The notes under the pieces are model-generated. The model saw nothing but the letters and a program-made list of their open reading frames with translations, did no database searches and was not told the origin of the DNA. From Oscillospiraceae bacterium (GTDB lineage: Bacteria > Bacillota > Clostridia > UBA1212 > UBA1255), in assembly GCA_015069165.1 (NCBI GenBank), contig SVJD01000001.1:57485-121484 (forward strand): a stretch of 64,000 nucleotides of DNA. Direction: 5' to 3'. This document shows positions 1 through 43,565 of the stretch, piece after piece. Position 1 is the stretch's first letter. Every line of letters starts with the position of its first letter. The position numbers were made by a program, and so were the translations under genes.

Positions 1-62
1 TTTTCCTCCCGGATATCTTAACGGAGAATAATTCATTTCTAAAACTCCCTTTTTCATCTTCA

Positions 63-977
63 TCATTCCCACAAAACTGTATCAACCACAAAACTTGTTT
101 TATATTCAGTATTGCATGCATCATAAAGAACTACTTCAACCTTCAGTTCCTGGTGCATGTTCGTTCTCTCCCGGATCACTTCACAAAAGCTATCACTTAC
201 CTTGAGGAAGAGTGTTTTTTCGGCCTGACTTTTAGCTGGCAACATAAACGGCGACTTTTCAATCAAAGTAGGAGCTTGTCTGAATTGCGTTTTGTTATCA
301 TCAATATACAGAACGGAGCTTCCTATTTTGCTATCTGAATACATCCATTTAACTGTGACCTTACTAAATACAAAAGAGTTGTCCGTATTATTCACGAAAC
401 TGATAGGAATACGTGCAAACACCTGCTTCACTCGGGATATGTCCACAATACCAATTTCAATTTTATTATTCAAAGACAAGATATCCACATAGAATCTCGT
501 TTTGTAAATTTCCTCGATATCACTTCTAAGTGCACGGAAATTATTCGCGCTCTTTCTAATGTATATATCACCTGCATGAAGACATATTTTATCTTTAAAA
601 GAATAATCTTTTGCTACAACGTATGGCTTTTGAATATTCGAACTTTTTACAATCGCCGCACCGACTCTTTTAGTTTCAATATCAAATTGCTCAATATCTA
701 TTTCGATAAACGGATCGCAATAGGTGCGAATTAATTGGTTGAGGTCTGAAATATCCGGAATGTCTTTTTCTGTTATACCAACAATCTCACGAGTGACATC
801 ACTTACTCCAAAAATAATATACTTGTCTTCCCGCGATGAGGCATTAGCAAAACTAATGATGTCTTTTATAAATTCACTTTTTTTGGCTTCGTGGTAATAC
901 TGCTGCTTAAAATCAACGGTATCGCTCTCAATACCATTTTCAATAAGCTTCGCAATTCTTTTCTGTCTTTGATTCAT
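63..977 (-). CDS. AlbA_2 / Schlafen-core (divergent AAA) domain protein
   Basis: The N-terminus reads ESDTVDFKQQ...FIKDIISFANASSREDKYIIFGVSD, which fits the PF04326 AlbA_2 pattern (E..EFK...IaAFAN..GG.L.iGV.D). It is the last gene of a 4-gene co-directional operon, and its first 12 codons overlap the upstream NUDIX gene. Confidence 0.55.
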   Translation of the reverse strand: MNQRQKRIAKLIENGIESDTVDFKQQYYHEAKKSEFIKDIISFANASSREDKYIIFGVSDVTREIVGITEKDIPDISDLNQLIRTYCDPFIEIDIEQFDIETKRVGAAIVKSSNIQKPYVVAKDYSFKDKICLHAGDIYIRKSANNFRALRSDIEEIYKTRFYVDILSLNNKIEIGIVDISRVKQVFARIPISFVNNTDNSFVFSKVTVKWMYSDSKIGSSVLYIDDNKTQFRQAPTLIEKSPFMLPAKSQAEKTLFLKVSDSFCEVIRERTNMHQELKVEVVLYDACNTEYKTSFVVDTVLWE

Positions 978-1368
978 TAGTTTCTATATCTCCTAATAGT
1001 ACTTTTAAGATTTCCTCATCTGCTGGGCAGAACTCATAGTTCGGTATCTCTCTTGGTGTGATCCATTGAATATCGTTATGTTCCGACATCTGCGGTTCGT
1101 CTTCGACAATGGTGGCATTAAACAATGTTAGATGCACCGTCAAGTCGGGATATTCGTGGACGACGTCCATAAACACGCCGCCGACAGATAGCGTCACGGC
1201 AAGTTCTTCTTGACACTCACGAATAAGCGCCTGTTCTTTTGTTTCTCCCTGCTCAACTTTGCCACCAACAAACTCCCACAGGAGCCCGCGCGCCTTGTGC
1301 GCCGGGCGTTGACAGATCATGAATTTATTGCTCTGCCAAATAAGGGCTGCTACTACTTCGGTTATCAT
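940..1368 (-). CDS. NUDIX hydrolase (MutT-like)
   Basis: A Nudix box is present: GGKVEQGETKEQALIRECQEELAV, matching GX5EX7REUXEEXGU. Its start codon overlaps the stop of the upstream helicase gene by 4 nt (ATGA-type coupling). Confidence 0.75.
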   Translation of the reverse strand: MITEVVAALIWQSNKFMICQRPAHKARGLLWEFVGGKVEQGETKEQALIRECQEELAVTLSVGGVFMDVVHEYPDLTVHLTLFNATIVEDEPQMSEHNDIQWITPREIPNYEFCPADEEILKVLLGDIETNESKTEKNCEAY

Positions 1369-3494
1369 ATTTCCTCAATGCCAATCTTCTTCAAGTATTC
1401 ATAAGTTCCATCGTAGAATTTAGGCAAGCGAGTGCTATCCTCCCAAAATCCACTTGGATTCTTATTGGGATTACCAGCAGGAACACAAATCACCATACCA
1501 GCCCTTGCTCTTGTGAGAAGAACTCGATAAGCATTGAGCATATATTTGATCTGCTCTTGTTTATTCTCAGTATCGGGTATTTTTTCATTCCACGCAGTTT
1601 TACCGTTAAATGTATAATAACGCCATTTTTCGTTATCACATCTCATATCGGCATCCCACAGCACGCAGGTATAATCAAGCTCCAAACCCTGCACCTGAAT
1701 TTCCGTTGCGGCATCTTCAAGATAGTTAGAGGCTCTTGTATCAATTTTGTCTTCAAGGAACCAGTGAACTGCATTCTCATCACCAGAGGGGAGAATGTGT
1801 ATTCCCAACGGTTTGAATCGTGCAGCTTCCTTGGTTACGAGTACGCCTGTACGTTCTGTTCCTCTGACTTTACCATGAAGCCATCTTTTTGCAGTTACCA
1901 TATCTCGTGTTAAGACAATGGGATACCTGTCCTTTATTTCATTGTACAATTCTGCTGCATCAGGATTGAAGGTGAGCAGTGAATGAACAAATGCAGAGAG
2001 TTTTTCGGCTCTGAAGGAGCGTAGAGAAACACCAAGGTGTAAATTTTCCGAATACGTAACGTTTTCGTTTTTCGCCAGCAGTTCGTTAACCTTACCTTCG
2101 GCATATTCCGGCTCTGTAAGCTTTGGAGAAATATATACTTTCCAATGTGGAAATTTGTCATTCAGTGCATTTATCCACTCTGAAATTCCCGCTTCACCGG
2201 TATTGATCTCCTGTCCACCACCTACAAGGCAGACAATAGTTGCCCAGTCCTCTCTCTGATCGAGAGACCATATCAAGAAAGCCGCCTCGGATAATGGAAA
2301 ATTGGGAACCTTCAATTTATTTCCGTATGTACCACCACGTTTTAGATAATCTGCAAGCCTTTTGTGGGTCCACGAGCGCTGCGCCTCGTCAAAAATGGCA
2401 ACGTGCTCCACTTCTCCGTAACCAGATTCTGCGAGTTTCACCGCTTTTTCGGGATCAATTTCCAAAACCCCATTTTCAACAGGATTTTTGATTTTAGCGA
2501 GCATATTATCACGATAGCGGTGGATGATTTGAATAAATTTACCTACCTCTCTGCGAGAATCGGACAGATTTTTCTTTTCGTTTCTATCACGGCATTTTTG
2601 ATGATTATCTTTTGCAAGAGCTTCGGTAAGTACCGCAACCAAAGGACCATTTCCCGAAAGATATACTGCGCCTTCGTCTTCAACAGGAGCGTCATTTCCC
2701 TGATAGGTTTGCTTTACAGCAACATCGAGCCCGACAAGCGTTTTCCCTGCACCGGGGACACCAGTAACGAAGCAAATGCTTTTTTCTCCGTTTGTCTTGC
2801 TTCTTTGTATTACGTCAAGTATGTATTTAATTGTTGTATCAGTTGAAACCTTATCCGCTTCGTGCCTCGTGATATTCTCAACTGAATGACTCTCGTATAA
2901 CGTTTTTGCAGCCTCAACAATAGTCGGCGTGGGTGCATAAGGACTGATAATCCAATCGTTATGAACCGGGAGTTCGCTCGGAAACTTATTCAACACATTT
3001 TCGATCAAAACAGATATCCCTGCTTTTCCGGTAACCAACGGATTTATTACCATGTCGTCATACACCGACATTTGAATAGAGGTGCTGCGATTAGAATAAT
3101 TTGTAGCAACCAAAATGGGAGCGATAACTTTGTCCTCGCTAAATTTGTGGAAGTTTTTCAGATCCAAAGCATAATCCAAAACTTGGTCAATATTAGATTC
3201 GAGAATTTTTGACTCGCCAACCTTAAATTCAAGGCAAAACACAATGCCGCAATAAAGGAGAACAACGTCAATTCTTTTACCGAGTCTCGGTATATCATAT
3301 TCAAAAACTATTTGGCCATTGGCATCACAAAGACTCGAAACCACGTTCTTCATGATTTCAATTTCAGCCTTCCACGCATCTCTTGTCGTGGTTAAAGCTT
3401 CACCGTGATAATTGTCGTCCAATATTCTGTATATAGAATCCGAGTCTGTATCTAAAAATGTTGCGAAATCGCTATTATACAAGCAGCGTGCCAT
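1365..3494 (-). CDS. Mrr-like PD-(D/E)xK nuclease fused to DUF2075 SF1 helicase
   Basis: The N-terminal nuclease motif is ...IDVVLL...CLEFKVG (D-x-n-E-x-K). The central region has Walker A GVPGAGKT and Walker B/DEAQ (IFDEAQ), as in the DUF2075/AAA_30 Schlafen-type helicase. An AAGGAG ribosome-binding site lies 9 nt upstream of the ATG. Confidence 0.65.
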   Translation of the reverse strand: MARCLYNSDFATFLDTDSDSIYRILDDNYHGEALTTTRDAWKAEIEIMKNVVSSLCDANGQIVFEYDIPRLGKRIDVVLLYCGIVFCLEFKVGESKILESNIDQVLDYALDLKNFHKFSEDKVIAPILVATNYSNRSTSIQMSVYDDMVINPLVTGKAGISVLIENVLNKFPSELPVHNDWIISPYAPTPTIVEAAKTLYESHSVENITRHEADKVSTDTTIKYILDVIQRSKTNGEKSICFVTGVPGAGKTLVGLDVAVKQTYQGNDAPVEDEGAVYLSGNGPLVAVLTEALAKDNHQKCRDRNEKKNLSDSRREVGKFIQIIHRYRDNMLAKIKNPVENGVLEIDPEKAVKLAESGYGEVEHVAIFDEAQRSWTHKRLADYLKRGGTYGNKLKVPNFPLSEAAFLIWSLDQREDWATIVCLVGGGQEINTGEAGISEWINALNDKFPHWKVYISPKLTEPEYAEGKVNELLAKNENVTYSENLHLGVSLRSFRAEKLSAFVHSLLTFNPDAAELYNEIKDRYPIVLTRDMVTAKRWLHGKVRGTERTGVLVTKEAARFKPLGIHILPSGDENAVHWFLEDKIDTRASNYLEDAATEIQVQGLELDYTCVLWDADMRCDNEKWRYYTFNGKTAWNEKIPDTENKQEQIKYMLNAYRVLLTRARAGMVICVPAGNPNKNPSGFWEDSTRLPKFYDGTYEYLKKIGIEEI

Positions 3495-3508
3495 AATTTT
3501 TTGCTCCT

Positions 3509-3724
3509 TTACTGATCCTTTTGAGGAACTATTTCAACGATGTCGTCCATAGTACATCCAAGAGCCGAGTAGATCTTCACGAGCACATCGCTTGACACAA
3601 CGGCGCCATCTTTGCCCATCTTGGTGATGGTGGCGATGCTGATGTCGGCTTTTTCGGCGAGTTCTTTCTTTTTCATATCGCGGTCGATCAGAAGTTTAAA
3701 CAATTTCTTATAGCTTGCAGCCAT
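3509..3724 (-). CDS. XRE-family helix-turn-helix transcriptional regulator (72 aa)
   Basis: The HTH_3 domain is MAASYKKLFKLLIDRDMKKKELAEKADISIATITKMGKDG. The six-frame ORF was trimmed to the internal Met, which has a GAGGTG ribosome-binding site 8 nt upstream. A 14-nt gap separates it from the downstream nuclease-helicase gene. Confidence 0.7.
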   Translation of the reverse strand: MAASYKKLFKLLIDRDMKKKELAEKADISIATITKMGKDGAVVSSDVLVKIYSALGCTMDDIVEIVPQKDQ

Positions 3725-3776
3725 TGTATTACACCTCATAAATAGTTTTAGTAAGTATGCTATTTCACCATTTGCC

Positions 3777-3800
3777 ATTATACCACACTCCTCGTCAAAC
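3777..3800 (-). promoter_or_regulatory. Putative extended -10 promoter (TGgTATAAT) for the XRE-nuclease/helicase-NUDIX-AlbA operon
   Basis: The minus strand reads TTTGACGAGGAGTGTGGTATAATGG. It has a TGnTATAAT extended -10 and a short spacer to a TTGACG -35-like hexamer, about 50 nt upstream of the XRE start. Confidence 0.35.
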
Positions 3801-4004
3801 AGCAACAGTTTCCGGCAGAGAAATACTGCGTTTTCAGCATTTGTCGGTTTTTCACCACAAACTGCAGGTGTGCGCATTGCAGAACGCTTTTTCTTTGTTT
3901 ACTGCTGGGCAATTGTTGACTTGAGTGCAGATTTGGCGGGGTGTTTGAATATCTATCTCCGGATTGGCAAAAATAACGTATATCAAACAAGTGGAGGTAG
4001 TGAA

Positions 4005-4666
4005 ATGTTCAAACACGAAAAGATGCTTTTCATCCAGTAGAGGTGGAGAGACCCAACCCGCAGTTTGCGGCGCTTTTGCAGGAACAGTTTGGCGGCGGCA
4101 ACGGCGAGCTGAAGGCGGCGATGCAGTATATGTCCCAGAGCTTTCGAATCAAAGACCCCGAGATCAAGGATCTGTTCCTTGATATTGCGGCGGAGGAGCT
4201 TGGTCACATGGAGATGGTGGCGCAGACCATCAATCTCTTAAACGGTCACGACGTGGACGCAACAACAGTCCCTTGCGGTGAGATCCAATCCCACGTAATT
4301 CTCGGTCTGAATCCGGGACTTATCAACGCTTCGGGTTATTCCTGGACGGCTGATTACGTGACGGTTACGGGTGATCTGTGCGCCGACCTGCTCAGCAACA
4401 TCGCATCCGAACAGCGCGCGAAGGTGGTATATGAATATCTTTACCGCCAGATCGACGACAATAAGGTGCGCGAGACCATTGATTTTCTCTTAAACCGCGA
4501 GGAAGCGCACAATCAAATGTTCCGCGATGCCTTTAACAAGGTGCAGAACTCCAGCTCCAACCGTGATTTCGGTACGACCAAAGCCGCGAAAATGTATTTC
4601 TCCATGTCCGACCCCGGTCCCAACGCATTCGCGACAGGTGATACAAAACCCGTATCTTTCGAATAA
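4005..4666 (+). pseudogene. cotJC: Manganese catalase / CotJC family, interrupted by a 1-nt frameshift near the 5' end
   Basis: ATG 4005, preceded by a GGAGGT ribosome-binding site, encodes MFKHEKMLFIQ*, matching the CotJC N-terminus (MWVYEKKLQYPV). The frame then shifts by -1 in a T4 run (4027-4030). The long ORF from 4043 continues as PVEVERPNPQFAALLQEQFGGGNGELKAAMQYM...EELGHMEMV, with the di-Mn ligand motif. GC is about 60% against a genome average near 40%. Confidence 0.6.
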
Positions 4667-4670
4667 TAGC

Positions 4671-4710
4671 AAAAAGCCGATGAGGATTTTTTCTCATCGG
4701 CTTTTTATCT
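4671..4710. terminator. Bidirectional rho-independent terminator
   Basis: A 14-bp stem AAAAAGCCGATGAG / CTCATCGGCTTTTT with a 9-nt loop is flanked by an A-run and a T-run. It sits between the convergent genes ending at 4666 (+) and 4820 (-). Confidence 0.7.
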
Positions 4711-4819
4711 ATGTATGTCAATTAAGCAACATGGTGTTGCTATTTATTCAGCAGAATTATCACTTCAACGCTATTCGTTTTATAGCAACTATTATAACTA
4801 AATGATAAAATCACATTTA

Positions 4820-5863
4820 TCAATGCGAAATCATCCAATTAACTTGTGTTGGCAATCCCATATGTCTTATATGGTTTTCAAATATTGCTCCTACAGCTTT
4901 TGCCTGATCCAAAAAGGTGTCGCAACTGATTGCTTGACTAGCTAAAAGAGCGCTGATCTGCGTAGGTTCACTTCCATACTGAACCACTTTTGAAGAAGGA
5001 TCTTCACCTTTTTCTACCAAACGATCCAACATACGCTTTCCAGCTTCATTCACCATATCGCTTTTAAGCATATCTTCCAACTGTTTTCGCAGTTCTTCAA
5101 GAGCCATCCATCGCTTGCAAACACTCCAAGCATCTGATTTAACGATTTTTTCCAAATGCCGTTTCATTACACCAACCTTGTGATTTGCATTAAGGTATTG
5201 AACATTATCCGAAAGAGTCAACAGCTCTTGAAATAGTCCATAAAGCTTTGCCCTTTTCCCGTACCACGAAACAACATCTGGTTTGAGAACATTTTCCTTT
5301 GGAATATATATTGTAATACTATCCTGCTCCCGATAATCGTTTGCTCGGTACAACAAAACATTATGCACATAATCATTTAAACATGCATAATAAGCTACTT
5401 GTTCTTTGATATCTACAACAACAAGCAACACCGGTATCGCACTTCCCATACGTTCTACAAGCTTTAGCAGAGGAACGTCCACCACAAATTTTAAAACGGG
5501 AAGTTTCTTTTCTTCTAATTCCTTTTTGGTGTACAACTGTTCTCCAATAGGTTTTATTGTTGCAAATTCAGGATATTCCGTCCCCTTCACCTGAAAGAAA
5601 ACATGTTCTCCCAAAGTAACACAAACCCCATCTTCATGCTCAAACAACTCAAGGTCAATATCTATTCCGTAGTCCGGTTCCATCTTACGTTGTACCCATT
5701 CAATAGGAAGGACCGACTGCAAAAAGAGCAAAGACTTTGCTTCAACAATATGATTGGTATCTCTTATTTTTCCCTCTGCCAAAAAATTACCTGCTTTTCT
5801 AACATGAATCCCAATTCGCTGTTTACACTTTAATATTATATCACAATTTTGCCGAATTTTCAA
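4820..5863 (-). CDS. Hypothetical protein with PD-(D/E)xK-like nuclease motif (DUF4365-like)
   Basis: The motif EPDYGIDIDLELFE...EHVFFQVKG has a D..D..E.K restriction-endonuclease-like core. There is no other recognisable domain. Confidence 0.4.
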   Translation of the reverse strand: MKIRQNCDIILKCKQRIGIHVRKAGNFLAEGKIRDTNHIVEAKSLLFLQSVLPIEWVQRKMEPDYGIDIDLELFEHEDGVCVTLGEHVFFQVKGTEYPEFATIKPIGEQLYTKKELEEKKLPVLKFVVDVPLLKLVERMGSAIPVLLVVVDIKEQVAYYACLNDYVHNVLLYRANDYREQDSITIYIPKENVLKPDVVSWYGKRAKLYGLFQELLTLSDNVQYLNANHKVGVMKRHLEKIVKSDAWSVCKRWMALEELRKQLEDMLKSDMVNEAGKRMLDRLVEKGEDPSSKVVQYGSEPTQISALLASQAISCDTFLDQAKAVGAIFENHIRHMGLPTQVNWMISH

Positions 5864-6000: not shown

Positions 6001-6046
6001 ACAAAAAACACCTCGGATGCAGCTGCATTCGGGGTGTTTTGTTTGA
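6001..6046. terminator. Orphan bidirectional rho-independent terminator
   Basis: The arms AACACCTCGGATGCAG and CTGCATTCGGGGTGTT form a 14-16-bp stem with two G-U pairs, followed by TTTTGTTTG and preceded by AAAAAA. No annotated CDS ends nearby. Confidence 0.55.
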
Positions 6047-6195
6047 CCACAGTTTATCCCACATCCACGCACGGAGTACACGGAAACAGTGGAGATAAGA
6101 GCGCCGGAAAGGATGTGTTTCCGAGCAGAAAGGGGCGGAAACGGCTAAAAACGAACGGAAACAGGTACTCCGGATTTCTTTGGGAGCAGGATGCC

Positions 6196-6223
6196 GCAGG
6201 TTCAAATCCTGTCATCCCGACCA
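6196..6223 (+). other. tRNA 3'-end fragment: T-arm plus acceptor 3' strand plus CCA, with no matching 5' half
   Basis: The sequence GCAGG-TTCAAAT-CCTGT-CATCCCG-A-CCA mirrors the T-arm and 3' end of the complete tRNA-Leu at 32401-32483 (3 mismatches in 26). No acceptor 5' strand (CGGGATG) or cloverleaf is found upstream. Confidence 0.55.
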
Positions 6224-6376
6224 TATCGAGTGTTCATAACGGATTTGAGTTATGGACACTCGATTTTATTTTATTACGATGAATTGTCGAACAAAAAGTA
6301 ACATTTAATTAGAAAGACATGTTCTTTTCGGTGTGTTATGGATTTTACTGTCAAAATCCGAAGCTCGCTACACTAT

Positions 6377-6405
6377 TTGACTTTAAAAATGATTTTTAAT
6401 ATAAT
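6377..6405 (+). promoter_or_regulatory. Consensus sigma-A promoter: TTGACT, 17-nt spacer, TATAAT
   Basis: TTGACT lies at 6377-6382 and TATAAT at 6400-6405, with an exact 17-nt spacer. A GGGGGA ribosome-binding site sits 8 nt before the ATG at 6446. Confidence 0.6.
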
Positions 6406-6445
6406 GACTCTATTGATCTCACTTCAATAATTTGGGGGATATAAG

Positions 6446-7336
6446 ATGATAACAAATATAGATGTTTTCAATGAAACAATAAAAATTATTAATACAAATG
6501 AATGTTTAAATGTAGAAACAAAAAAAGCAATAAATAATACAGTTATATATGATGAAGGATTTCAATCTATCAAACAACCTGACTGTCAATCTAATGTACG
6601 ATTTGAAGAAAATCTGACACTACTCGCCGCAGAACCGATGGCATTAAATAAAAAAGTTGCCGTTTTAAACTTTGCAAATCCTGTTGAACCTGGTGGAGGG
6701 GTGTTGCGTGGAGCTAACTCACAAGAAGAATATTTATGTCGAGCAAGTAACCTATATCCATGCTTAACTTCAACACAAGCAAAACCATATTACGAACTAC
6801 ATAACAATCTCCTAAAACAAAATAATACCCCCTACTTTCTTTCGACTGATCGTATTATTTATTCAACAAATATTACTGTTATTCGAAAAGATGTAGGATT
6901 TTTTGTAGACAGACCTGATTGTAGAAGCATACAAAGATTTTCAAATAACTGGTACCAAATTGATGTTATTACATGTGCAGCTCCCTATTTTTATAATAAT
7001 ATACCAATATCTGAGGCATTATTGAAAGAACTTCTCAAAAAGCGAATAAAAAACATATTTGAAGTTGCCATTGAAAATGAAATACAAGTTCTTATTCTTG
7101 GCGCCTTTGGATGCGGGGCATTTCATAACCCGCCAATGCTTGTAGCAACCGCGTTTTCTGATGTTTTGCTTGAGAGCCGATATACTAATGCTTTTGAGGA
7201 AGTTATATTTGCAGTAAAAAGAACAGGATTTTTTTGCGAAAATATTGAAGCATTTGAAATCACCTTTTCTGTATTTCCGCCAACAGGCGAATACGTTCTT
7301 AGTGCCGAACGCAACAAGCGTCGCTTTTTTGAGTAA
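6446..7336 (+). CDS. Bacterial-type poly(ADP-ribose) glycohydrolase-like macrodomain protein (DUF2263/TIGR02452)
   Basis: The PARG signature GGG-x6-QEE appears as LNFANPVEPGGGVLRGANSQEEYLCRASNLY. The gene is very AT-rich (about 25% GC). Confidence 0.65.
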   Translation: MITNIDVFNETIKIINTNECLNVETKKAINNTVIYDEGFQSIKQPDCQSNVRFEENLTLLAAEPMALNKKVAVLNFANPVEPGGGVLRGANSQEEYLCRASNLYPCLTSTQAKPYYELHNNLLKQNNTPYFLSTDRIIYSTNITVIRKDVGFFVDRPDCRSIQRFSNNWYQIDVITCAAPYFYNNIPISEALLKELLKKRIKNIFEVAIENEIQVLILGAFGCGAFHNPPMLVATAFSDVLLESRYTNAFEEVIFAVKRTGFFCENIEAFEITFSVFPPTGEYVLSAERNKRRFFE

Positions 7337-7388
7337 TGTTATAGGATTCATTATAATTATAGAATCCGTTATGAACACCCGACCATAA

Positions 7389-7432
7389 AAAATCGGCATG
7401 CCTCTTATGAAGTATGCCGATTTTATTTTTTA
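7389..7432. terminator. Bidirectional terminator between convergent genes
   Basis: A stem AAAATCGGCAT / ATGCCGATTTT is followed by a TTTTATTTTTT run. It lies between the genes ending at 7336 (+) and 7441 (-). Confidence 0.55.
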
Positions 7433-7440
7433 CTTTTAAT

Positions 7441-10116
7441 TTACTGCTTAAGCAGAGGCATTACATCTTCTTCTCTGAGCCGCCATGTATTAATAAAGTC
7501 AAACTCTGCAAATGTCGATTTGTCCTTCATTTGTTCAGAAGATACAGCATTTGCGCCTGAATATTTAGTTCCTGTTGCAGTTGCCGGAGTGCCGTTATCG
7601 AGATAATAACAACCCTTTATACTATCTTCTGCGTTTTGAATTTCACCAGCTATAGAGCCGGAGCTTGTAGCACCCGAAACAGTACCTGTGTTATAGCAAT
7701 TAATAATAGGTGTTTTAGAGAAATCTTTACCAACAATACCGCCGGCAAATTGAACACCGGTTACACTTCCTAAATTGAAACAATCAGATATTTCGTCGTT
7801 GTCATCAAGTGTAGATCTGCCGATAATACCGCCCATATACATTTCGCCTGAAATATTGCCGCTATTCCAACACTTCTGTATATGAAGATTATAGCCCGAC
7901 AAACCTACTATACCGCCGGAACAGTAATACGGCTGAAGAACCCCGCCGTAATCTTCTGTTGTATCATAATCCTCTGCCCAATCATTAGTTACATTTCCAA
8001 GGTTATAGCAATTTTTAATATATGAGTTTGAAACTGAGCCGTAGTTATATCCGAGAATACCGCCTGAAGATACTGAGCAGCCTAAGCCGGACTGTGCGGA
8101 AATATTTCCTGTGTTATAGCAATTCTCAATAGTATCTGCATAATTGTAGCCTTTTATGCCGCCTACATATACAGTAATACTGTATACGTTAAAGGTATTT
8201 TCACAAGATGCATACATTTTCAGATTACCCGTGTTATAGCAGTTGCTTATTTTTCCGTCCTCACCTGCAATGCCGCCTAAAGCGCCGCTTTGTCTTGTTT
8301 TGATATTGATATCGGCTTCGTTATAGCAATTGGTGATAGTTGCACCGTCTGCATTTCCCATTAAACCTCCGAAATCTCCGGAACGCGCAGTAATATCAAT
8401 ACTACCCTTTACAAAGCAGTTATCAATTATACACCCATTTTTGTTATTCCAGCCCATAGTGCTGTTGGATATAGCTCCGCCTGCTGACTCTTTATCCTCT
8501 GTATCTGCAGTATGATTTATTTCCATACCGAGATTCTTAATAGTAGCATTTCCAATATAACCGAAGAGCTGTTTTGACATATTCTTCATTGTATATCCGT
8601 TGCCGTCAAGAACACCGTAGAATACTGCCGGAATATCATATTCCGCAGGGAAAGTGATATCATTCATCAATATGTATTTTGCAGTGTTAATCTCGTTTGC
8701 GTGTACTCTGATAGATGTAAGGAGTGTTGTTTCTCTGGGACAACTGTCTGTAATTTTCTTAAAGTCTTCATAAGAATATATACCTGAATAACCCTCGGGT
8801 ACTTCAGTTTTTTTCTCGACTTCAACAATAAATCCGTCGTGGAGCTCAAAACCGTTGTGAACAACATATTTTTGTTTCATAAGACGAACAAATATGTTAT
8901 TAATCATATTATAATATTCTTCACAGTAATCTGTCTGTGTGTTATACCATTTTTTGATGGTGTCCTCTTCATTTTTAAAGCCGTCAAGCATCTTAGATAT
9001 AACCGAAAGCACTCCTGCATCTTCTTGATTGAGGCTGTATATGAGATACTCTCCGCGAAGATGTGTGGCAATGAGCATTTTATAAAGCTCAGCCTTTGCA
9101 CGAATGTTACTGTAAGTAGCCTGAGCACTGTCGCTCTTAGATACTGTTATTTTGTTGTTTGCCGCAATGAGTGCCTCTGCAATATCTGTCATTGCAACCA
9201 TTTCGTTGTGGCGTCTGAATGTGTTTGTTGTGCCAAAAAGTATATCTCCGCCCATCATTACTGTCTTAAATACAGCTTTACCGGTAGATACGAGAGAATC
9301 AAGGGATTTAAAAGCCTTTTCACCGTAATCTACATAATCTTTTACGACAGTATCAGTTTTATATGCATCAACTTTTTTCAGAAGTCCGAAGCCCAACTTT
9401 CCGAGAAAATTGTCAACGGAAAATACTGCAATCTCTTCTGATGCGGAGGAAACAAAATTCATTCTTTCCTTATACAGAAGCTGATTTGCAGAACGAAGCT
9501 CCCCTGCCGCTTCCTTCATATCCGCATTATCCGTGTTGTCGTAAATTGCTTTAAGGAAAGTTTCTGCGTTCATATAGTTACGAACGCAAAGCTCGTAATA
9601 TTTAAGTTCATTTGTTGTATTTACAGCTAACTCAATTCCTGTCGAAGCAAGCTTGAGTCCGTCGGCAATTTTTTCCGCCGTACCGTCAATTCCCGCAACC
9701 GTTGCAGCAATATCAAAAACATCAAAAGCGTACTCTTTGACATTCTTCATATTGTCATACTGACCTTGCGTTTCAATCTGTTGAGCCAAATCACATTCAA
9801 TAACAGCGATCATGTTTGTAAGCACCTGAGCGTAGTATTTCTTGTCAGGTGTCTCACCTATAACTTTGTTTGCAATGCTTATAAACTTTGATGCTGTCTT
9901 TCTCTCTGCCATCGAATCTACATAAGTCCAATAAGCAAGACCGTCTTTTTTAAAGAACATAGTTTCAACCATGGCTTGAATATTTTCGTAATCGTAGTAA
10001 AGTTCCTCTATATCCGCATCAGTGTACAAAAAGCCGGGATCCTCAGCGCTAACCGTAAATGTAAGAGAAGTTACGCAGATAATAAGAGCAAGTAATATTG
10101 CTGATATTCTTTTCAT
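7441..10116 (-). CDS. Secreted GLUG-motif repeat protein (891 aa)
   Basis: There is an N-terminal signal peptide. The C-terminal half carries about 9 repeats of ..NCYNTGN(I/V)sg...GGI(V/A)G.. (GLUG motif). Confidence 0.5.
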   Translation of the reverse strand: MKRISAILLALIICVTSLTFTVSAEDPGFLYTDADIEELYYDYENIQAMVETMFFKKDGLAYWTYVDSMAERKTASKFISIANKVIGETPDKKYYAQVLTNMIAVIECDLAQQIETQGQYDNMKNVKEYAFDVFDIAATVAGIDGTAEKIADGLKLASTGIELAVNTTNELKYYELCVRNYMNAETFLKAIYDNTDNADMKEAAGELRSANQLLYKERMNFVSSASEEIAVFSVDNFLGKLGFGLLKKVDAYKTDTVVKDYVDYGEKAFKSLDSLVSTGKAVFKTVMMGGDILFGTTNTFRRHNEMVAMTDIAEALIAANNKITVSKSDSAQATYSNIRAKAELYKMLIATHLRGEYLIYSLNQEDAGVLSVISKMLDGFKNEEDTIKKWYNTQTDYCEEYYNMINNIFVRLMKQKYVVHNGFELHDGFIVEVEKKTEVPEGYSGIYSYEDFKKITDSCPRETTLLTSIRVHANEINTAKYILMNDITFPAEYDIPAVFYGVLDGNGYTMKNMSKQLFGYIGNATIKNLGMEINHTADTEDKESAGGAISNSTMGWNNKNGCIIDNCFVKGSIDITARSGDFGGLMGNADGATITNCYNEADINIKTRQSGALGGIAGEDGKISNCYNTGNLKMYASCENTFNVYSITVYVGGIKGYNYADTIENCYNTGNISAQSGLGCSVSSGGILGYNYGSVSNSYIKNCYNLGNVTNDWAEDYDTTEDYGGVLQPYYCSGGIVGLSGYNLHIQKCWNSGNISGEMYMGGIIGRSTLDDNDEISDCFNLGSVTGVQFAGGIVGKDFSKTPIINCYNTGTVSGATSSGSIAGEIQNAEDSIKGCYYLDNGTPATATGTKYSGANAVSSEQMKDKSTFAEFDFINTWRLREEDVMPLLKQ

Positions 10117-10589
10117 TTCTGTGCCGCCTCCTTTTCAAGAACAGCGTTAATAGCCTTTACAAGCTCTTCTTCCATAAAGCTCTTAATAAGCTCATCGCTT
10201 TTTACAACTTCGCTTCCGGTATTATAATCAGTTTCTACAGTAGCATATCCGCTGTATTCAACAGTAGTGTACTCTTTCTGATTTACAGCCTTGGCAACAG
10301 CCTTTTCAATATCTTCTTCACCCATAGCCGCAATAAATAGTTCTGTATAATTCGGAATTTGTGCTACAACGCGAACACGCGTTTCAAGTCTTAACTGCTC
10401 AGGTTCACCCGTGGTAAATTTGATTCCGTCAAGACTGATTTCATTAATTAATTGGTCTATTATTTCTTGCTGTTTATTGTCCTTATTTTCTTCGGAATCA
10501 TTTTTCTCCGAAGACGTACTGCTATTGCCGCACGCAACCAAGAAAACGGTTGCAAGAACAAGCAAAAAACACAACAATCTTTTTTTCAT
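10113..10589 (-). CDS. Lipoprotein (signal peptide with LVAC lipobox), co-transcribed with GLUG protein
   Basis: The ORF was trimmed to the internal start MKKRLLCFLLVLATVFLVACGN, which has an AAGGAGA ribosome-binding site. Its stop overlaps the start of the downstream gene. Confidence 0.5.
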   Translation of the reverse strand: MKKRLLCFLLVLATVFLVACGNSSTSSEKNDSEENKDNKQQEIIDQLINEISLDGIKFTTGEPEQLRLETRVRVVAQIPNYTELFIAAMGEEDIEKAVAKAVNQKEYTTVEYSGYATVETDYNTGSEVVKSDELIKSFMEEELVKAINAVLEKEAAQK

Positions 10590-10722
10590 ATTCTGTCTCC
10601 TTTTAAAGTGTTTCACTGCATTATACACAATTATATTCTAAATAACAATTATATAAATTTGCATTTTTGAATAATTTTTTCTCCCTTTGCAAACTATACT
10701 CTCAAAACTTCGGAGGTAAACT

Positions 10723-32400: not shown

Positions 32401-32483
32401 GCGGATGTGGTGAAATTGGCAGACACGATGGATTTAGGTTCCATTGCGAGAGCGTGCGGGTTCAAGTCCTGTCATCCGCACCA
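32401..32483 (+). tRNA. tRNA-Leu, anticodon UAG (type II, long variable arm)
   Basis: The acceptor stem GCGGATG/CATCCGC is perfect. The anticodon arm is ATGGA-TTTAGGT-TCCAT, there is a long variable arm, the T-loop is GGTTCAAGTCC, and CCA is encoded. Confidence 0.85.
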
Positions 32484-41075: not shown

Positions 41076-41398
41076 TTTTGAAAACCCCTTTCAAATTGTG
41101 TAAATATAATAAATTTTTGTAACAAAAAAACGTTTCCATCTCGTTGTTACTACAAAGAGACGAAAACGTTAAAAAAAACTAAATTTCCGCGGTACCACTC
41201 TTCTTCATCCAAAACAGGATGCACCTTAGATGCTATCACATCTTAACTCTGTTACGGGAGTTCCCGTCTGCCACTACTTAAACTTTCATGTCAGCCGCTC
41301 CGCGGTGAGTTCAGCAAAATTCTCACAGTGTCTTGCACCATCCGACACCTCTCTGTTAGTAAAGCATATTGCATACTACTCCGCATCTTCGCGTTTAC
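41076..41398 (-). promoter_or_regulatory. T-box riboswitch leader (with promoter TTGACA at 41429-41434 and intrinsic terminator about 41121-41170)
   Basis: On the minus strand the AGAGAGG GA-motif is followed by the T-box sequence AGAGTGGTACCGCGG (plus-strand CCGCGGTACCACT at 41187-41199). After that comes a 14-bp terminator helix AACGTTTTCGTCTC/GAGATGGAAACGTT plus U7, and then an AAAGGGG ribosome-binding site. Confidence 0.7.
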
Positions 41399-43202: not shown

Positions 43203-43565
43203 TTTGACCACCCTTTCTTTTTGCTTACGGAGTGAGAAAAGCAATAAAAAACGCCCTCCGCATTCCGATAAAGAATACAGAGGACGAGAAAATCAATAAT
43301 CCCGTGGTACCACCTCAGTTCGCTGTCATCTCACAACAACAGCCTTGTCAGGTACTATCATACCTTAGTTCTATAACGGGAACACCCGTTGCATCCTACT
43401 TAAGAAAAAAACTTGTTCAGCGCACTGCTAACAGAATGAATTCGAGAAGGACGTAAACTTTGCCTCGCACCAACCGGCAACTCTCTCCAGAATCGTTCCG
43501 ACCTACTGGTTTCTGATCATCGCATTTAGTTTCAATTACACACAAAAGTTAAACACAACTTTCAT
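43203..43565 (-). promoter_or_regulatory. T-box riboswitch leader 2 (promoter TTGACT...TATATAAT at about 43571-43610 on the minus strand)
   Basis: On the minus strand a short Stem I (AGAGAG, UUGCC, loop, GGCAA, AGUUUACGU) is followed by the T-box GAGGTGGTACCACGGG (plus-strand CCCGTGGTACCACCTC at 43301-43316). Then comes a terminator CGTCCTCTG...CGGAGGGCG plus U6, about 35 nt before the start codon. Confidence 0.65.

What the first reader, a model, noticed from the sequence alone, without database searches (positions are those of the whole stretch)
6377..7336. AT-rich bacterial PARG-type macrodomain gene behind a perfect consensus promoter
The GGG-x6-QEE signature GGGVLRGANSQEE, which in the DUF2263/TIGR02452 family is diagnostic of ADP-ribose glycohydrolase activity, is intact. 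The gene is about 25% GC, far below its surroundings. It is driven by an exact TTGACT-17-TATAAT promoter with a strong ribosome-binding site. It is a single-gene unit between two terminators. Stand-alone PARG-like macrodomains can reverse protein or DNA ADP-ribosylation, and the position beside a defence-type island suggests an immunity or anti-toxin role.
Basis: partly seen in the sequence, partly recalled or inferred. Interest (0 to 1): 0.55.

Follow-up and report, generated by a model that had tools for sequence, protein, structure and literature searches.

The report
Mobile bacterial PARG hydrolase gene cassette
This is an ordinary, intact member of the known bacterial PARG (ADP-ribose-removing) enzyme family; the useful extra is that it sits in a 1.16-kb recombination-site-flanked cassette next to a tRNA remnant and was recently copied between two bacterial species.

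Summary
The gene is real. ORF 6446-7336 (+) encodes 296 aa with an intact GGG-x7-QEE loop. It scores 174 bits against TIGR02452 (cut-off 50) and hits PF10021 at E 7e-31. Its AlphaFold model (pLDDT 91) matches the T. curvata and D. radiodurans PARG crystal structures (TM 0.77-0.83). Key residues are invariant in 33 relatives, and dN/dS is 0.18.

Some details of the finding are wrong. GC is 33.4%, not about 25% (window 38.0%). The promoter matches the consensus at 11 of 12 positions, not all 12. Terminator hairpins on both sides and a neighbouring defence island are confirmed.

A toxin-antitoxin role is not supported. No ADP-ribosyltransferase gene lies within about 10 kb, and 80 genome loci show no conserved partner gene.

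New here: the gene is the only cargo of a 1.16-kb cassette. On its left is a tRNA-Pro 3' fragment and a hairpin that is exactly conserved after the CCA ends of many tRNAs in at least 50 metagenome contigs, often beside a large serine recombinase. On its right is the matching half-site. The cassette is 99% identical in a second species whose backbone is only 83-86% identical.

Best reading: an active PARG-type hydrolase spread as a non-autonomous element. It probably acts as an orphan protector against ADP-ribosylating toxins, an idea already published in 2025. It is a new member of a known kind.

The parts
6178..6223 (+). 3' fragment (46 nt, anticodon loop to CCA) of a tRNA-Pro(UGG-type) gene; the 5' half is missing. 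It forms the B half of the left junction.
   Evidence: It aligns to intact tRNA-Pro genes of L177 and L179 from CTTTGGGA to ...CCCGACCA, and the last 28 nt are identical to the L177 tRNA-Pro(CGG). ARAGORN and Rfam do not call a tRNA here.
6225..6264 (+). Hairpin 'HP' (ATCGA GTGTTCATAAC GGATTTGA GTTATGGACAC TCGAT) followed by a T-run to about 6272. It is terminator-like. Its first arm (6226-6245) is the left inverted repeat of the cassette (P' half-site).
   Evidence: 16-bp stem (I6). The 30-nt core is exact in at least 50 metagenome contigs, always 6 nt after a CCA.
6377..6405 (+). Sigma-70-type promoter TTGACT-17-TATAAT (11 of 12).
   Evidence: Kept in L010 and, as TTGATT-17-TATAAT, in L009. 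Chance level.
6434..6439 (+). Ribosome-binding site GGGGGA, 6 nt before the ATG.
   Evidence: Read directly from the sequence.
6446..7336 (+). PARG-type macrodomain gene (296 aa), TIGR02452 / PF10021.
   Evidence: dN/dS is 0.18 against the 88% relative.
6692..6730 (+). Codons for the catalytic loop G83-G-G-VLRGANS-Q93-E94-E95.
   Evidence: G84, G85, Q93, E94 and E95 are invariant in 33 relatives and G83 is in at least 90%. E95 aligns with DrPARG E112, whose E112A mutant is inactive.
7100..7123 (+). Codons for the diphosphate-binding loop G219-AFGCGAF-226.
   Evidence: G219, A220, F221, G222, C223, G224 and F226 are invariant. The loop aligns with DrPARG GAWGCGVF.
7241..7243 (+). Codon for N266, at the position of the DrPARG T267 / TcPARG R268 'ribose cap'.
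   Evidence: HMM alignment to the 5zdb and 5zdf chains. N266 is invariant in the clade. Meaning of the position from PMC6445106.
7363..7385 (+). Right end of the cassette: AATCCGTTATGAACAC CCGA CCA. It is the inverted repeat of 6226-6245 (P half-site) and ends in a tRNA-like ...CCCGACCA.
   Evidence: 20-nt inverted repeat, 95% complementary, arms 1117 nt apart (I2). CCCGACCA recurs at 6216 and 7378. Homology to L010 and L009 stops exactly here. The same right end bounds the serine-recombinase elements L179, L211 and L212.
7389..7424 (.). Hairpin with T-runs on both strands (to about 7433). It is a bidirectional terminator between PARG (+) and the 891-aa GLUG protein gene (-), and lies outside the cassette.
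   Evidence: I8 (16-nt arms, 88% complementary) and the sequence.

Best explanation
ORF 6446-7336 encodes a catalytically competent bacterial-type poly(ADP-ribose) glycohydrolase, a PARG-like macrodomain. Its Glu95 in the GGG-x7-QEE loop would cleave the ribose-ribose O-glycosidic bond (2'-OH to C1''). This is the bond found in PAR chains and in 2'-OH ADP-ribosylated RNA.

The gene is transcribed on its own, from a near-consensus promoter and between two terminator hairpins.

It is the single cargo of a 1.16-kb non-autonomous integrated element of the CIME type. The left junction is the 3' end of a tRNA-Pro remnant plus the conserved HP hairpin. The right junction is the inverted copy of the HP arm plus a tRNA-like CCCGACCA. 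Joined together, the two ends form a 45-bp near-palindrome like a serine-recombinase attP. Complete elements with the same ends carry a large serine recombinase, which would move the cassette in trans.

The cassette was recently transferred between two species.

Most likely role: a stand-alone protective or repair enzyme that erases ADP-ribose marks placed by foreign ADP-ribosyltransferase toxins. It is not the antitoxin of a linked toxin.

Shown: family, fold, conserved residues, purifying selection, cassette ends, horizontal transfer.
Inferred: enzyme activity, substrate, recombinase-mediated mobility, physiological role.
For: Family and fold:
- TIGR02452 174 bits against a cut-off of 50, profile positions 25-264 of 266.
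- PF10021 E 7e-31.
- DrPARG E 9e-26 and TcPARG 3e-20 by sequence; 5e-39 and 1e-32 by profile.
- AlphaFold2 pLDDT 91.2, pTM 0.91.
- Foldseek top hits are 3sih, 3sij and 3sig (TM 0.74-0.77 by query length, 0.83 by target length) and 5zd* (0.67-0.71 and 0.80-0.83). Other macrodomains follow only at E about 1e-7 and TM about 0.4.

Selection: catalytic and diphosphate-loop residues are invariant in 33 relatives. dN/dS is 0.18.

Stand-alone unit. There is no conserved neighbour in 80 genome loci; the largest neighbour clusters have 5-6 members.

Cassette:
- 20-nt inverted repeat flanking the gene.
- The hypothetical joined ends fold as a 19-bp-armed palindrome, z = -10.
- The HP is exact in at least 50 contigs after the CCA of tRNA-Pro, -Leu, -Met, -Gln and -Arg.
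- An adjacent 564-aa protein carries Resolvase + Recombinase + Zn_ribbon_recom + DUF4368.
- The same two ends bound elements of 12.8 kb, 8.0 kb and 0.86 kb and other one-gene cassettes.

Transfer: the cassette is 99.0% identical to L010 over 1151 nt, while the flanking TrkH/TrkA backbone is 83-86% identical. An 88% copy sits in an unrelated teichoic-acid gene context.

Role: the bacterial-type PARGs SCO0909 and DRB0099 reverse RhsP2 2'-OH RNA ADP-ribosylation and protect E. coli (PMC11833690). A clostridial DUF2263 protein (C. difficile CD160) removes PAR (PMC5966428).
Against: - No enzyme assay exists for this protein or for any relative above about 38% identity.
- No toxin it might counter has been identified.
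- All 14 contigs read that carry the exact neighbouring GLUG protein also carry PARG or break before it. No empty site was seen, and no circular form or excision product has been observed.
- No serine recombinase lies in the 64-kb window or the 10 kb beyond it.
- In four short cassettes the right-end 8-mer equals the 3' end of the neighbouring tRNA; in three longer elements it does not. The crossover point and the mechanism (serine or tyrosine recombinase) are therefore unsettled.
- The wider PARG family is not linked to HP: only the 100%, 99% and 88% copies are.
Confidence: 0.6

Rival explanations
1. Endogenous eraser of a PAR or ADP-ribose signalling pathway. The enzyme would work with a PARP-like or other transferase encoded elsewhere in the same genome, as in Herpetosiphon aurantiacus, C. 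difficile CD160 or D. radiodurans, for example in DNA/RNA damage repair.
For: Characterised family members degrade PAR, and two bacteria have PARP+PARG pairs (PMC5966428; PMC8120803). Loss of DrPARG leads to PAR accumulation in D. radiodurans after radiation damage (PMC6445106).
Against: No transferase family is among the annotated genes within about 10 kb or among the ten large ORFs sampled further along the window. Relatives have no conserved partner gene. The gene travels alone on a cassette recently exchanged between species, which fits an accessory function better than a core signalling pair. That paper cites an earlier count of only 28 bacterial PARP homologues in 27 species, whereas this search found 3861 relatives.
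Confidence: 0.2
2. Counter-defence cargo. The hydrolase would protect incoming mobile DNA (the cassette's helper element, or phages in the case of viral relatives) from host defence systems that ADP-ribosylate DNA or RNA. This would be analogous to the orphan antitoxin-like enzymes phages use against DarTG1.
For: 197 relatives lie on IMG/VR viral contigs. Hits also occur in Lak megaphages and Bacillus phage G. The gene sits on a mobile cassette. There is a precedent for orphan hydrolases as anti-DarTG factors (PMC11825919, abstract).
Against: Viral relatives are only 29-40% identical; the single closer one (68%) is a decayed pseudogene. PARG-type macrodomains have not been shown to reverse DarT-type base ADP-ribosylation: in PMC11833690 guanosine-base marks were removed only by NADAR enzymes. 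The cassette has no transfer functions, and in this population it is apparently fixed in the chromosome.
Confidence: 0.2
3. Antitoxin of a DarTG-like or other ART toxin-antitoxin pair.
For: Macrodomain antitoxins exist (DarG). The gene lies next to a defence island.
Against: It is a single-gene transcription unit with its own promoter and terminators. There is no adjacent ORF with a transferase domain. The fold class is PARG-like, not the TARG1/ALC1-like class of DarG. It has no PADLOC match. The cassette moves without any partner gene.
Confidence: 0.03
4. Housekeeping metabolite hydrolase, for example acting on O-acetyl-ADP-ribose or ADP-ribose-1''-phosphate, with no role in conflict.
For: Many macrodomains hydrolyse such small molecules (general knowledge of the superfamily; review PMC7050489).
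Against: The QEE catalytic loop is specific to the PARG class, which cleaves ribose-ribose bonds. The patchy, mobile distribution is unlike a housekeeping gene.
Confidence: 0.07

Closest known systems
Deinococcus radiodurans PARG (DRB0099; PDB 5ZDA-5ZDG)
   Same: Same family (TIGR02452 / PF10021), with 37.8% identity over residues 71-257. Same GGG-x7-QEE and GAxGCGxF loops. Fold TM 0.67-0.71 by query length and 0.80-0.83 by target length. A small uncharged residue (N266 against T267) replaces the TcPARG Arg268 ribose cap.
   Different: DRB0099 lies in a three-gene repair operon with an RNA/DNA ligase and a kinase-phosphatase on a megaplasmid (PMC11833690). The window gene is a solitary cassette gene. 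The window protein has about 45 extra N-terminal residues and a clade-specific C-terminal tail ending ...NKRRFFE.
Thermomonospora curvata PARG (PDB 3SIG/3SIH)
   Same: Best structural match, at E 3.5e-19 and TM 0.77/0.83 over 287 columns. It shares the N-terminal helical extension plus macrodomain core.
   Different: 27% identity. TcPARG has the Arg268 ribose cap that makes it a strict exo-glycohydrolase. The window clade has an invariant Asn there, so an open 2'-OH side is possible (inference).
Orphan bacterial PARGs as immunity enzymes against RhsP2-type RNA ADP-ribosylating toxins (S. coelicolor SCO0909, DRB0099; NAR 2025, PMC11833690)
   Same: A stand-alone PARG-type macrodomain with no cognate toxin nearby.
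   Different: No activity or protection data exist for this protein. The published examples are actinobacterial or deinococcal chromosomal or plasmid genes that were not described as mobile cassettes.
CIMEs (cis-mobilizable elements) and serine-recombinase IMEs/ICEs of Firmicutes (review PMC5704250)
   Same: attL and attR are retained, no recombinase or transfer genes remain, the location is a tRNA-associated hot spot next to another island, and tandem accretion is seen in a related locus.
   Different: The ends match a family whose recombinase is a large serine recombinase and whose target appears to be the CCA end of many different tRNAs. The review describes site-specific serine-recombinase IMEs mainly as inserting within genes, and 5' or 3' gene-end sites as typical of tyrosine recombinases. 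Mobility of this cassette is inferred, not observed.
DarG macrodomain antitoxin (DarTG)
   Same: A macrodomain ADP-ribosylhydrolase used in bacterial conflict systems.
   Different: Different macrodomain class (TARG1/ALC1-like), always paired with DarT, and acts on thymidine- or guanosine-linked DNA ADP-ribose. None of these applies here.

Membership tests
Bacterial-type PARG (TIGR02452 / Pfam PF10021 PARG_cat_microb, formerly DUF2263) | Full-length profile match above the curated cut-offs | tested here: met
   TIGR02452 174 bits against 50, residues 21-270 on profile positions 25-264 of 266. PF10021 108 bits against 23.5.
Bacterial-type PARG (TIGR02452 / Pfam PF10021 PARG_cat_microb, formerly DUF2263) | PARG signature GGG-X6-8-QEE with two consecutive glutamates | tested here: met
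   G83-G-G-VLRGANS-Q93-E94-E95, with a spacer of 7. Invariant or nearly so in 33 relatives. E95 aligns with the DrPARG catalytic E112.
Bacterial-type PARG (TIGR02452 / Pfam PF10021 PARG_cat_microb, formerly DUF2263) | Macrodomain fold with N-terminal helical extension, closest to solved microbial PARGs | tested here: met
   AF2 pLDDT 91.2. Foldseek ranks 1-13 are all TcPARG or DrPARG at E 1e-16 to 1e-19 and TM up to 0.83; the next macrodomains are at E about 1e-7.
Bacterial-type PARG (TIGR02452 / Pfam PF10021 PARG_cat_microb, formerly DUF2263) | Diphosphate-binding loop (G-A-x-G-C-G-x-F) | tested here: met
   G219-AFGCGAF aligns to DrPARG GAWGCGVF. Invariant in the clade.
Bacterial-type PARG (TIGR02452 / Pfam PF10021 PARG_cat_microb, formerly DUF2263) | Hydrolysis of poly(ADP-ribose) / ribose-ribose O-glycosidic bonds | not testable with these tools
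   Needs purified protein. Activity is shown only for relatives.
Strict exo-glycohydrolase subtype (TcPARG-like ribose cap) | Arg at the ribose-cap position (TcPARG R268) | tested here: not met
   The position aligned to DrPARG T267 is N266, invariant in the clade. The equivalence T267 = R268 is taken from PMC6445106. I did not align TcPARG directly.
DarTG-type or other ART toxin-antitoxin pair | Adjacent, co-transcribed ADP-ribosyltransferase toxin gene | tested here: not met
   The unit is monocistronic. No transferase family is among the neighbours. No conserved neighbour in 80 loci.
Known or candidate anti-phage defence systems (PADLOC-DB 2.0) | Match to a PADLOC protein model | tested here: not met
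   0 families for the PARG protein, while its upstream neighbours match PDC-S41, PDC-S07 and PDC-S50.
CIME-type non-autonomous integrated element | attL and attR retained, with ends shared with autonomous elements | tested here: met
   Inverted repeats 6226-6245 / 7363-7382. The same left (HP) and right (GTTATGAACAC-CCGCACCA) ends bound the recombinase-carrying elements L179 and L211.
CIME-type non-autonomous integrated element | No integration or transfer genes inside | tested here: met
   PARG is the only sizeable gene between the ends. The other ORFs in that span listed lie on the opposite strand inside or across the PARG gene and look spurious.
CIME-type non-autonomous integrated element | Demonstrated excision or mobilisation | not testable with these tools
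   Only indirect evidence: 99.0% cassette identity against 83-86% backbone identity, and an 88% copy in an unrelated context. No empty site was found.

The most novel reading that the evidence does not exclude
The HP hairpin and its partner half-site define a previously undescribed family of elements in gut and rumen Clostridia. Their large serine recombinases would integrate at the universal CCA end of essentially any tRNA gene. One-gene derivatives of these elements (PARG here; a GNAT acetyltransferase and an unknown membrane protein elsewhere) would act as trans-mobilised 'conflict cassettes'. On this reading the PARG cassette is a portable, constitutively expressed shield against RNA- or protein-ADP-ribosylating toxins circulating in the community.
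Probability: 0.3. Interest if true: 0.55.

Novelty: new member of a known kind. Interest (0 to 1): 0.35.

Why it matters
The physiological role of the many stand-alone bacterial PARGs is still open. The only experimental lead, from 2025, is protection against an RNA ADP-ribosylating toxin.

Here a PARG is a strongly promoted, single-gene, att-flanked cassette that crossed a species boundary recently. That is the distribution expected of an accessory conflict or immunity gene rather than a core signalling enzyme. It also offers a compact, natural construct (1.16 kb with promoter, gene and ends) for testing.

The by-product is of interest for mobile-element biology and for serine-integrase tools. 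It is an exactly conserved hairpin placed 6 nt after the CCA of many different tRNAs, next to large serine recombinases.

The gene itself is ordinary: thousands of close family members are already annotated as TIGR02452.

Tried and rejected
- tmRNA or complete tRNA upstream. ARAGORN found nothing at 6100-6223. Rfam gave only a sub-threshold tmRNA hit, 10.9 bits against a gathering score of 47. The sequence is a 46-nt tRNA-Pro 3' fragment. My first guess of tRNA-Leu, based on the tRNA-Leu at 32401, fits less well.
- tRNA adjacency as a family trait. Only 7 of 160 related loci have a tRNA within 1.5 kb. Rejected.
- Conserved operon partner. Neighbour clustering over 80 genome loci gave no cluster larger than 6 members, against several clusters of 7-9 among the 80 viral loci.
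- Target-site-duplication model for the 8-10-nt direct repeat. It is contradicted by L179, L211 and L212, whose right ends are CCGCACCA whatever the left tRNA is. Left open.
- Integron attC reading of the hairpin. The AAC/GTT boxes lie next to the loop, not at the outer ends. Rejected by inspection.
- Empty site. Looking up the exact GLUG neighbour gave only PARG-linked or truncated contigs.
- Walking upstream for an intact tRNA-Pro or an integrase. No tRNA and no recombinase family among the annotated genes within 10 kb beyond the window start.
- PHROGs gave no hit for the PARG protein.
- The HP 30-mer is absent from IMG/VR.
- One script printed a flood of output because of an empty-string bug. 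Only its valid rows were used.
Full report
**1. What is at the coordinates**

ORF 6446-7336 (+) runs from an ATG to TAA and encodes 296 aa containing PGGGVLRGANSQEEYLCRAS.
- TTGACT-17-TATAAT lies at 6377-6405.
- GGGGGA lies 6 nt before the ATG.
- A 16-bp-stem hairpin with a T-run lies upstream at 6225-6264. A second hairpin with T-runs on both strands lies at 7389-7424, between this gene and the convergent 891-aa GLUG-motif gene.

The single-gene unit between two terminators is therefore real.

Two statements in the finding are wrong or overstated.
- The gene is 33.4% GC (GC3 20.5%), not about 25%. The window is 38.0%, and 6.7% of 891-nt windows are lower.
- The promoter matches the sigma-70 consensus at 11 of 12 positions. 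The window holds eight sites that good, against 3.4 +/- 1.8 in simulated sequence. Its position and its conservation in relatives are what make it credible, not the match itself.

**2. What the protein is**

Profile and sequence evidence:
- TIGR02452 scores 174 bits against a cut-off of 50, over profile positions 25-264 of 266.
- Pfam PF10021 'Microbial-type PARG, catalytic domain' gives E 7e-31.
- The only solved structures it hits by sequence are the D. radiodurans and T. curvata PARGs: E 9e-26 and 3e-20 for the single sequence, and 5e-39 and 1e-32 with a 33-sequence profile.

Fold evidence: an AlphaFold2 model built on that alignment has pLDDT 91.2 and pTM 0.91. Foldseek ranks 1-13 are all those two enzymes, with TM up to 0.77 by query length and 0.83 by target length. 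A gap of about twelve orders of magnitude in E-value separates them from other macrodomains.

Residue conservation in the 33-member alignment (49-88% identity to the query), all:
- G84, G85, Q93, E94 and E95 are invariant, and G83 is present in at least 90%.
- The diphosphate loop G219-A-F-G-C-G and F226 is invariant.

E95 aligns with DrPARG E112, whose alanine mutant is inactive. Against the 88% relative, dS is 0.37, dN is 0.067 and dN/dS is 0.18, so the gene is under purifying selection. The motif is not coincidental.

One subtype detail. The residue aligned with DrPARG T267 is N266, invariant in this clade. T267 is the counterpart of the TcPARG Arg268 'ribose cap' that enforces strict exo-activity (PMC6445106). 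The clade therefore resembles DrPARG, with a possibly accessible 2'-OH side. This is an inference from alignment only.

**3. How common it is**

The protein search found 3861 relatives with E at or below 1e-5, mostly unnamed or named 'TIGR02452 family protein' from Clostridia, Lachnospiraceae and Oscillospiraceae MAGs.
- 578 stretches in GTDB species genomes encode relatives. The closest listed loci come largely from ruminant and other gut MAGs.
- 197 stretches lie on IMG/VR viral contigs.
- Relatives also occur in Lak megaphages, Bacillus phage G and plasmids, including the D. radiodurans megaplasmid.
- The exact protein occurs on at least 18 metagenome contigs.

As a gene family member it is ordinary.

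**4. Context: is it an antitoxin or part of the defence island?**

Upstream genes match candidate defence systems:
- the 709-aa Schlafen-group-3/DUF2075 helicase matches PDC-S41 (E 1.8e-241);
- the NUDIX protein matches PDC-S07 (1.9e-44);
- the AlbA_2/Schlafen protein matches PDC-S50 (8.9e-30);
- beyond the window start lie a Dam-like methyltransferase and a HerA-like ATPase.

'Beside a defence-type island' is therefore correct. The PARG protein itself has no PADLOC or PHROG match. None of the annotated genes within about 10 kb on either side carries an ADP-ribosyltransferase family, nor do the ten large ORFs sampled further along the window.

Neighbour clustering over 80 genome loci of relatives gave no recurrent partner. 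The largest genome clusters have 5-6 members. By reading their sequences, not by HMM, they look like a vWA-like protein, a Ser/Thr kinase and a MacroD-like fragment. A DarTG-like or other linked toxin-antitoxin reading is rejected.

**5.

(a) Directly upstream, 6178-6223 is the 3' 46 nt of a tRNA-Pro, from the anticodon loop CTTTGGGA to ...CATCCCGACCA. Its last 28 nt are identical to an intact tRNA-Pro found elsewhere. The 5' half is absent, and neither ARAGORN nor Rfam calls a tRNA there.

(b) After 'TA' comes the hairpin HP (6225-6264).

(c) A 20-nt inverted repeat, 95% complementary, flanks the gene: TCGAGTGTTCATAACGGATT at 6226-6245 and AATCCGTTATGAACACCCGA at 7363-7382. CCCGACCA(TA) occurs at both 6216 and 7378.

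(d) Joining the right end to the left end gives a 45-bp near-perfect palindrome centred on CCATA (DNA fold -18.8 kcal/mol, z = -10). That is the shape of a serine-recombinase attP.

(e) The 30-nt HP core is exact in at least 50 metagenome contigs, many labelled human gut metagenome. In almost all of them it starts 6 nt after a CCA. In most this is the 3' end of a tRNA, with many identities: Pro-CGG, Pro-UGG, Pro-GGG, four Leu isoacceptors, Met, Gln and Arg.

(f) In many of these contigs the next gene is a 564-579-aa protein on the opposite strand with Resolvase, Recombinase, Zn_ribbon_recom and DUF4368 domains. It is followed by a ParB-like protein.

(g) Elements of 12.8 kb (L179) and 8.0 kb (L211) carrying that recombinase end in the same right-end motif, GTTATGAACAC-CCGCACCA. 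So do a 0.86-kb remnant holding only a recombinase fragment (L212) and two other one-gene cassettes: L213 with a GNAT acetyltransferase, and L180 with an unknown 367-aa protein. In L211 the HP follows a right-end motif instead of a tRNA, as expected for tandem accretion.

The PARG unit therefore has the two ends of a serine-recombinase element family but no recombinase. This matches the published definition of a cis-mobilizable element, or CIME (PMC5704250).

**6. Evidence that the cassette has moved**

Contig L010 carries the cassette at 99.0% identity over 1151 nt (window 6238-7387). The flanking TrkH/TrkA backbone of that contig is only 83-86% identical to the window. Homology ends exactly after ...CCCG(C)ACCA.

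An 88% copy (L009) has the same two ends but lies beside teichoic-acid and ABC-transporter genes. Contigs L010 and L009 both break inside or just before HP, as expected for a repeated palindrome.

Limits on this evidence:
- No empty site was found. Every contig with the exact GLUG neighbour also carries PARG or ends before it.
- No recombinase lies in the window or in the 10 kb beyond it.
- The HP link is confined to the 100%, 99% and 88% copies, not the wider family.
- A 70% relative (L011) has a tRNA-like end and an HP variant downstream instead.
- The closest viral relative (L096) is a decayed pseudogene between a tyrosine integrase and a tRNA-Ala.

**7. Mechanism proposed**

Shown: an intact, conserved PARG-type active site; independent expression signals; cassette ends shared with recombinase-bearing elements; recent horizontal transfer.

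Inferred:
- The enzyme cleaves 2'-OH to C1'' ribose-ribose bonds. The same bond is present in PAR and in RhsP2-type RNA 2'-O-ADP-ribosylation (PMC11833690).
- It serves as an orphan protective or repair enzyme against foreign ADP-ribosyltransferase toxins.
- HP-type serine recombinases acting at the CCA end move the cassette in trans.

Unresolved: in four short cassettes the right-end 8-mer equals the neighbouring tRNA 3' end, but in three longer elements it is always CCGCACCA. So I cannot say whether that repeat is target-derived or an element-borne half-site that mimics a tRNA end, nor exactly where the crossover lies.

**8. Comparison with what is known, and novelty**

The protein is a member of the bacterial-type PARG family; all defining features testable here are met. 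The orphan-immunity idea was published in 2025 for SCO0909 and DRB0099. A clostridial member (C. difficile CD160) has been shown to remove PAR.

The gene is therefore a new member of a known kind. What is added here is its packaging as a mobile one-gene cassette. As a by-product, there is an apparently undescribed family of recombinase elements that insert next to tRNA CCA ends. My two literature searches did not surface a description of it, but they were not exhaustive.

**9. Verdict**

- Interest is 0.35.

Noticed in passing
window 6230-6259; loci L176-L225: The 30-nt hairpin core GTGTTCATAACGGATTTGAGTTATGGACAC is exact in at least 50 metagenome contigs, many labelled human gut metagenome. 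It almost always starts 6 nt after a CCA, usually the 3' end of one of many different tRNAs. It often lies next to a 564-579-aa large serine recombinase (with DUF4368) and a ParB-like gene. This looks like the end of an element family that integrates at tRNA CCA ends.
   Followed up: partly
window 1-5863 and L236 10916-15151: Candidate defence island: AlbA_2/Schlafen (PDC-S50), NUDIX (PDC-S07), Schlafen-group-3/DUF2075 helicase (PDC-S41, E 1.8e-241), an HTH regulator and DUF4365. Beyond the window start lie a Dam-like methyltransferase, a HerA-like ATPase and a 462-aa unknown protein. No tRNA, and no recombinase family among the annotated genes, within 10 kb beyond the window start.
   Followed up: partly
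window 6098-6177 (and hairpin 6005-6040): A strongly structured stretch with GGAAAC repeats replaces the 5' half of the tRNA-Pro. A separate terminator-like hairpin at 6005-6040 precedes it. No Rfam family reaches threshold (tmRNA 10.9 bits only). Origin and function unknown.
   Followed up: no
window 4043-4666 (+): The Mn-catalase/rubrerythrin-like ORF has 52.9% GC (GC3 65%) in a 38% GC window. It is the strongest compositional outlier seen, far more so than the PARG gene.
   Followed up: no
L096 5503-7992: The closest viral-contig relative (IMG/VR, from a sample in which the exact PARG also occurs) is a decayed PARG pseudogene; only a 102-aa C-terminal ORF is left. It lies between a 415-aa integrase (tyrosine type judged from its sequence, no HMM scan run) and a tRNA-Ala, again at an element/tRNA junction.
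   Followed up: partly
window 7288-7333 (residues 282-296); alignment A3: The clade has a conserved basic C-terminal tail (consensus ...NKRRFFE). The profile alignments to the DrPARG and TcPARG chains end at about profile position 276, before this tail. It is modelled as a helix with lower confidence (pLDDT about 66).
   Followed up: no
proteins P0052, P0068, P0072, P0094, P0099, P0107, P0118, P0120: Many relatives of 49-56% identity are 426-478 aa long. In eight of the nine long relatives scanned, the PARG domain starts at about residue 140-195, leaving an N-terminal extension with no Pfam match; the ninth (P0085) instead has extra C-terminal sequence.
   Followed up: no
viral loci L094-L175 (e.g. 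L103, L166, L094): In phage-like contigs the PARG relative lies in syntenic blocks. By eye, the neighbours look like RtcB RNA ligase, NAD synthetase, NUDIX and metallophosphatase proteins (motifs read from sequence, no HMM scan run). This hints at an RNA-repair or NAD-metabolism context in phages.
   Followed up: no
window 41153-41398 (-), 43277-43529 (-), 32401-32483 (+): Two T-box leaders (125 and 102 bits) and a tRNA-Leu(TAG). With SMC, TrkH/TrkA and 2-oxoacid dehydrogenase genes, they mark the window as chromosomal DNA of a Bacillota (Clostridia-like) organism.
   Followed up: no
window 7388-10663 vs L010 1152-1185: The block carrying the 891-aa GLUG-motif protein and a 171-aa ORF is absent from the related backbone in L010, which has a thioredoxin-domain (DUF255-like) gene instead. 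The region between the cassette and TrkH is itself variable.
   Followed up: partly
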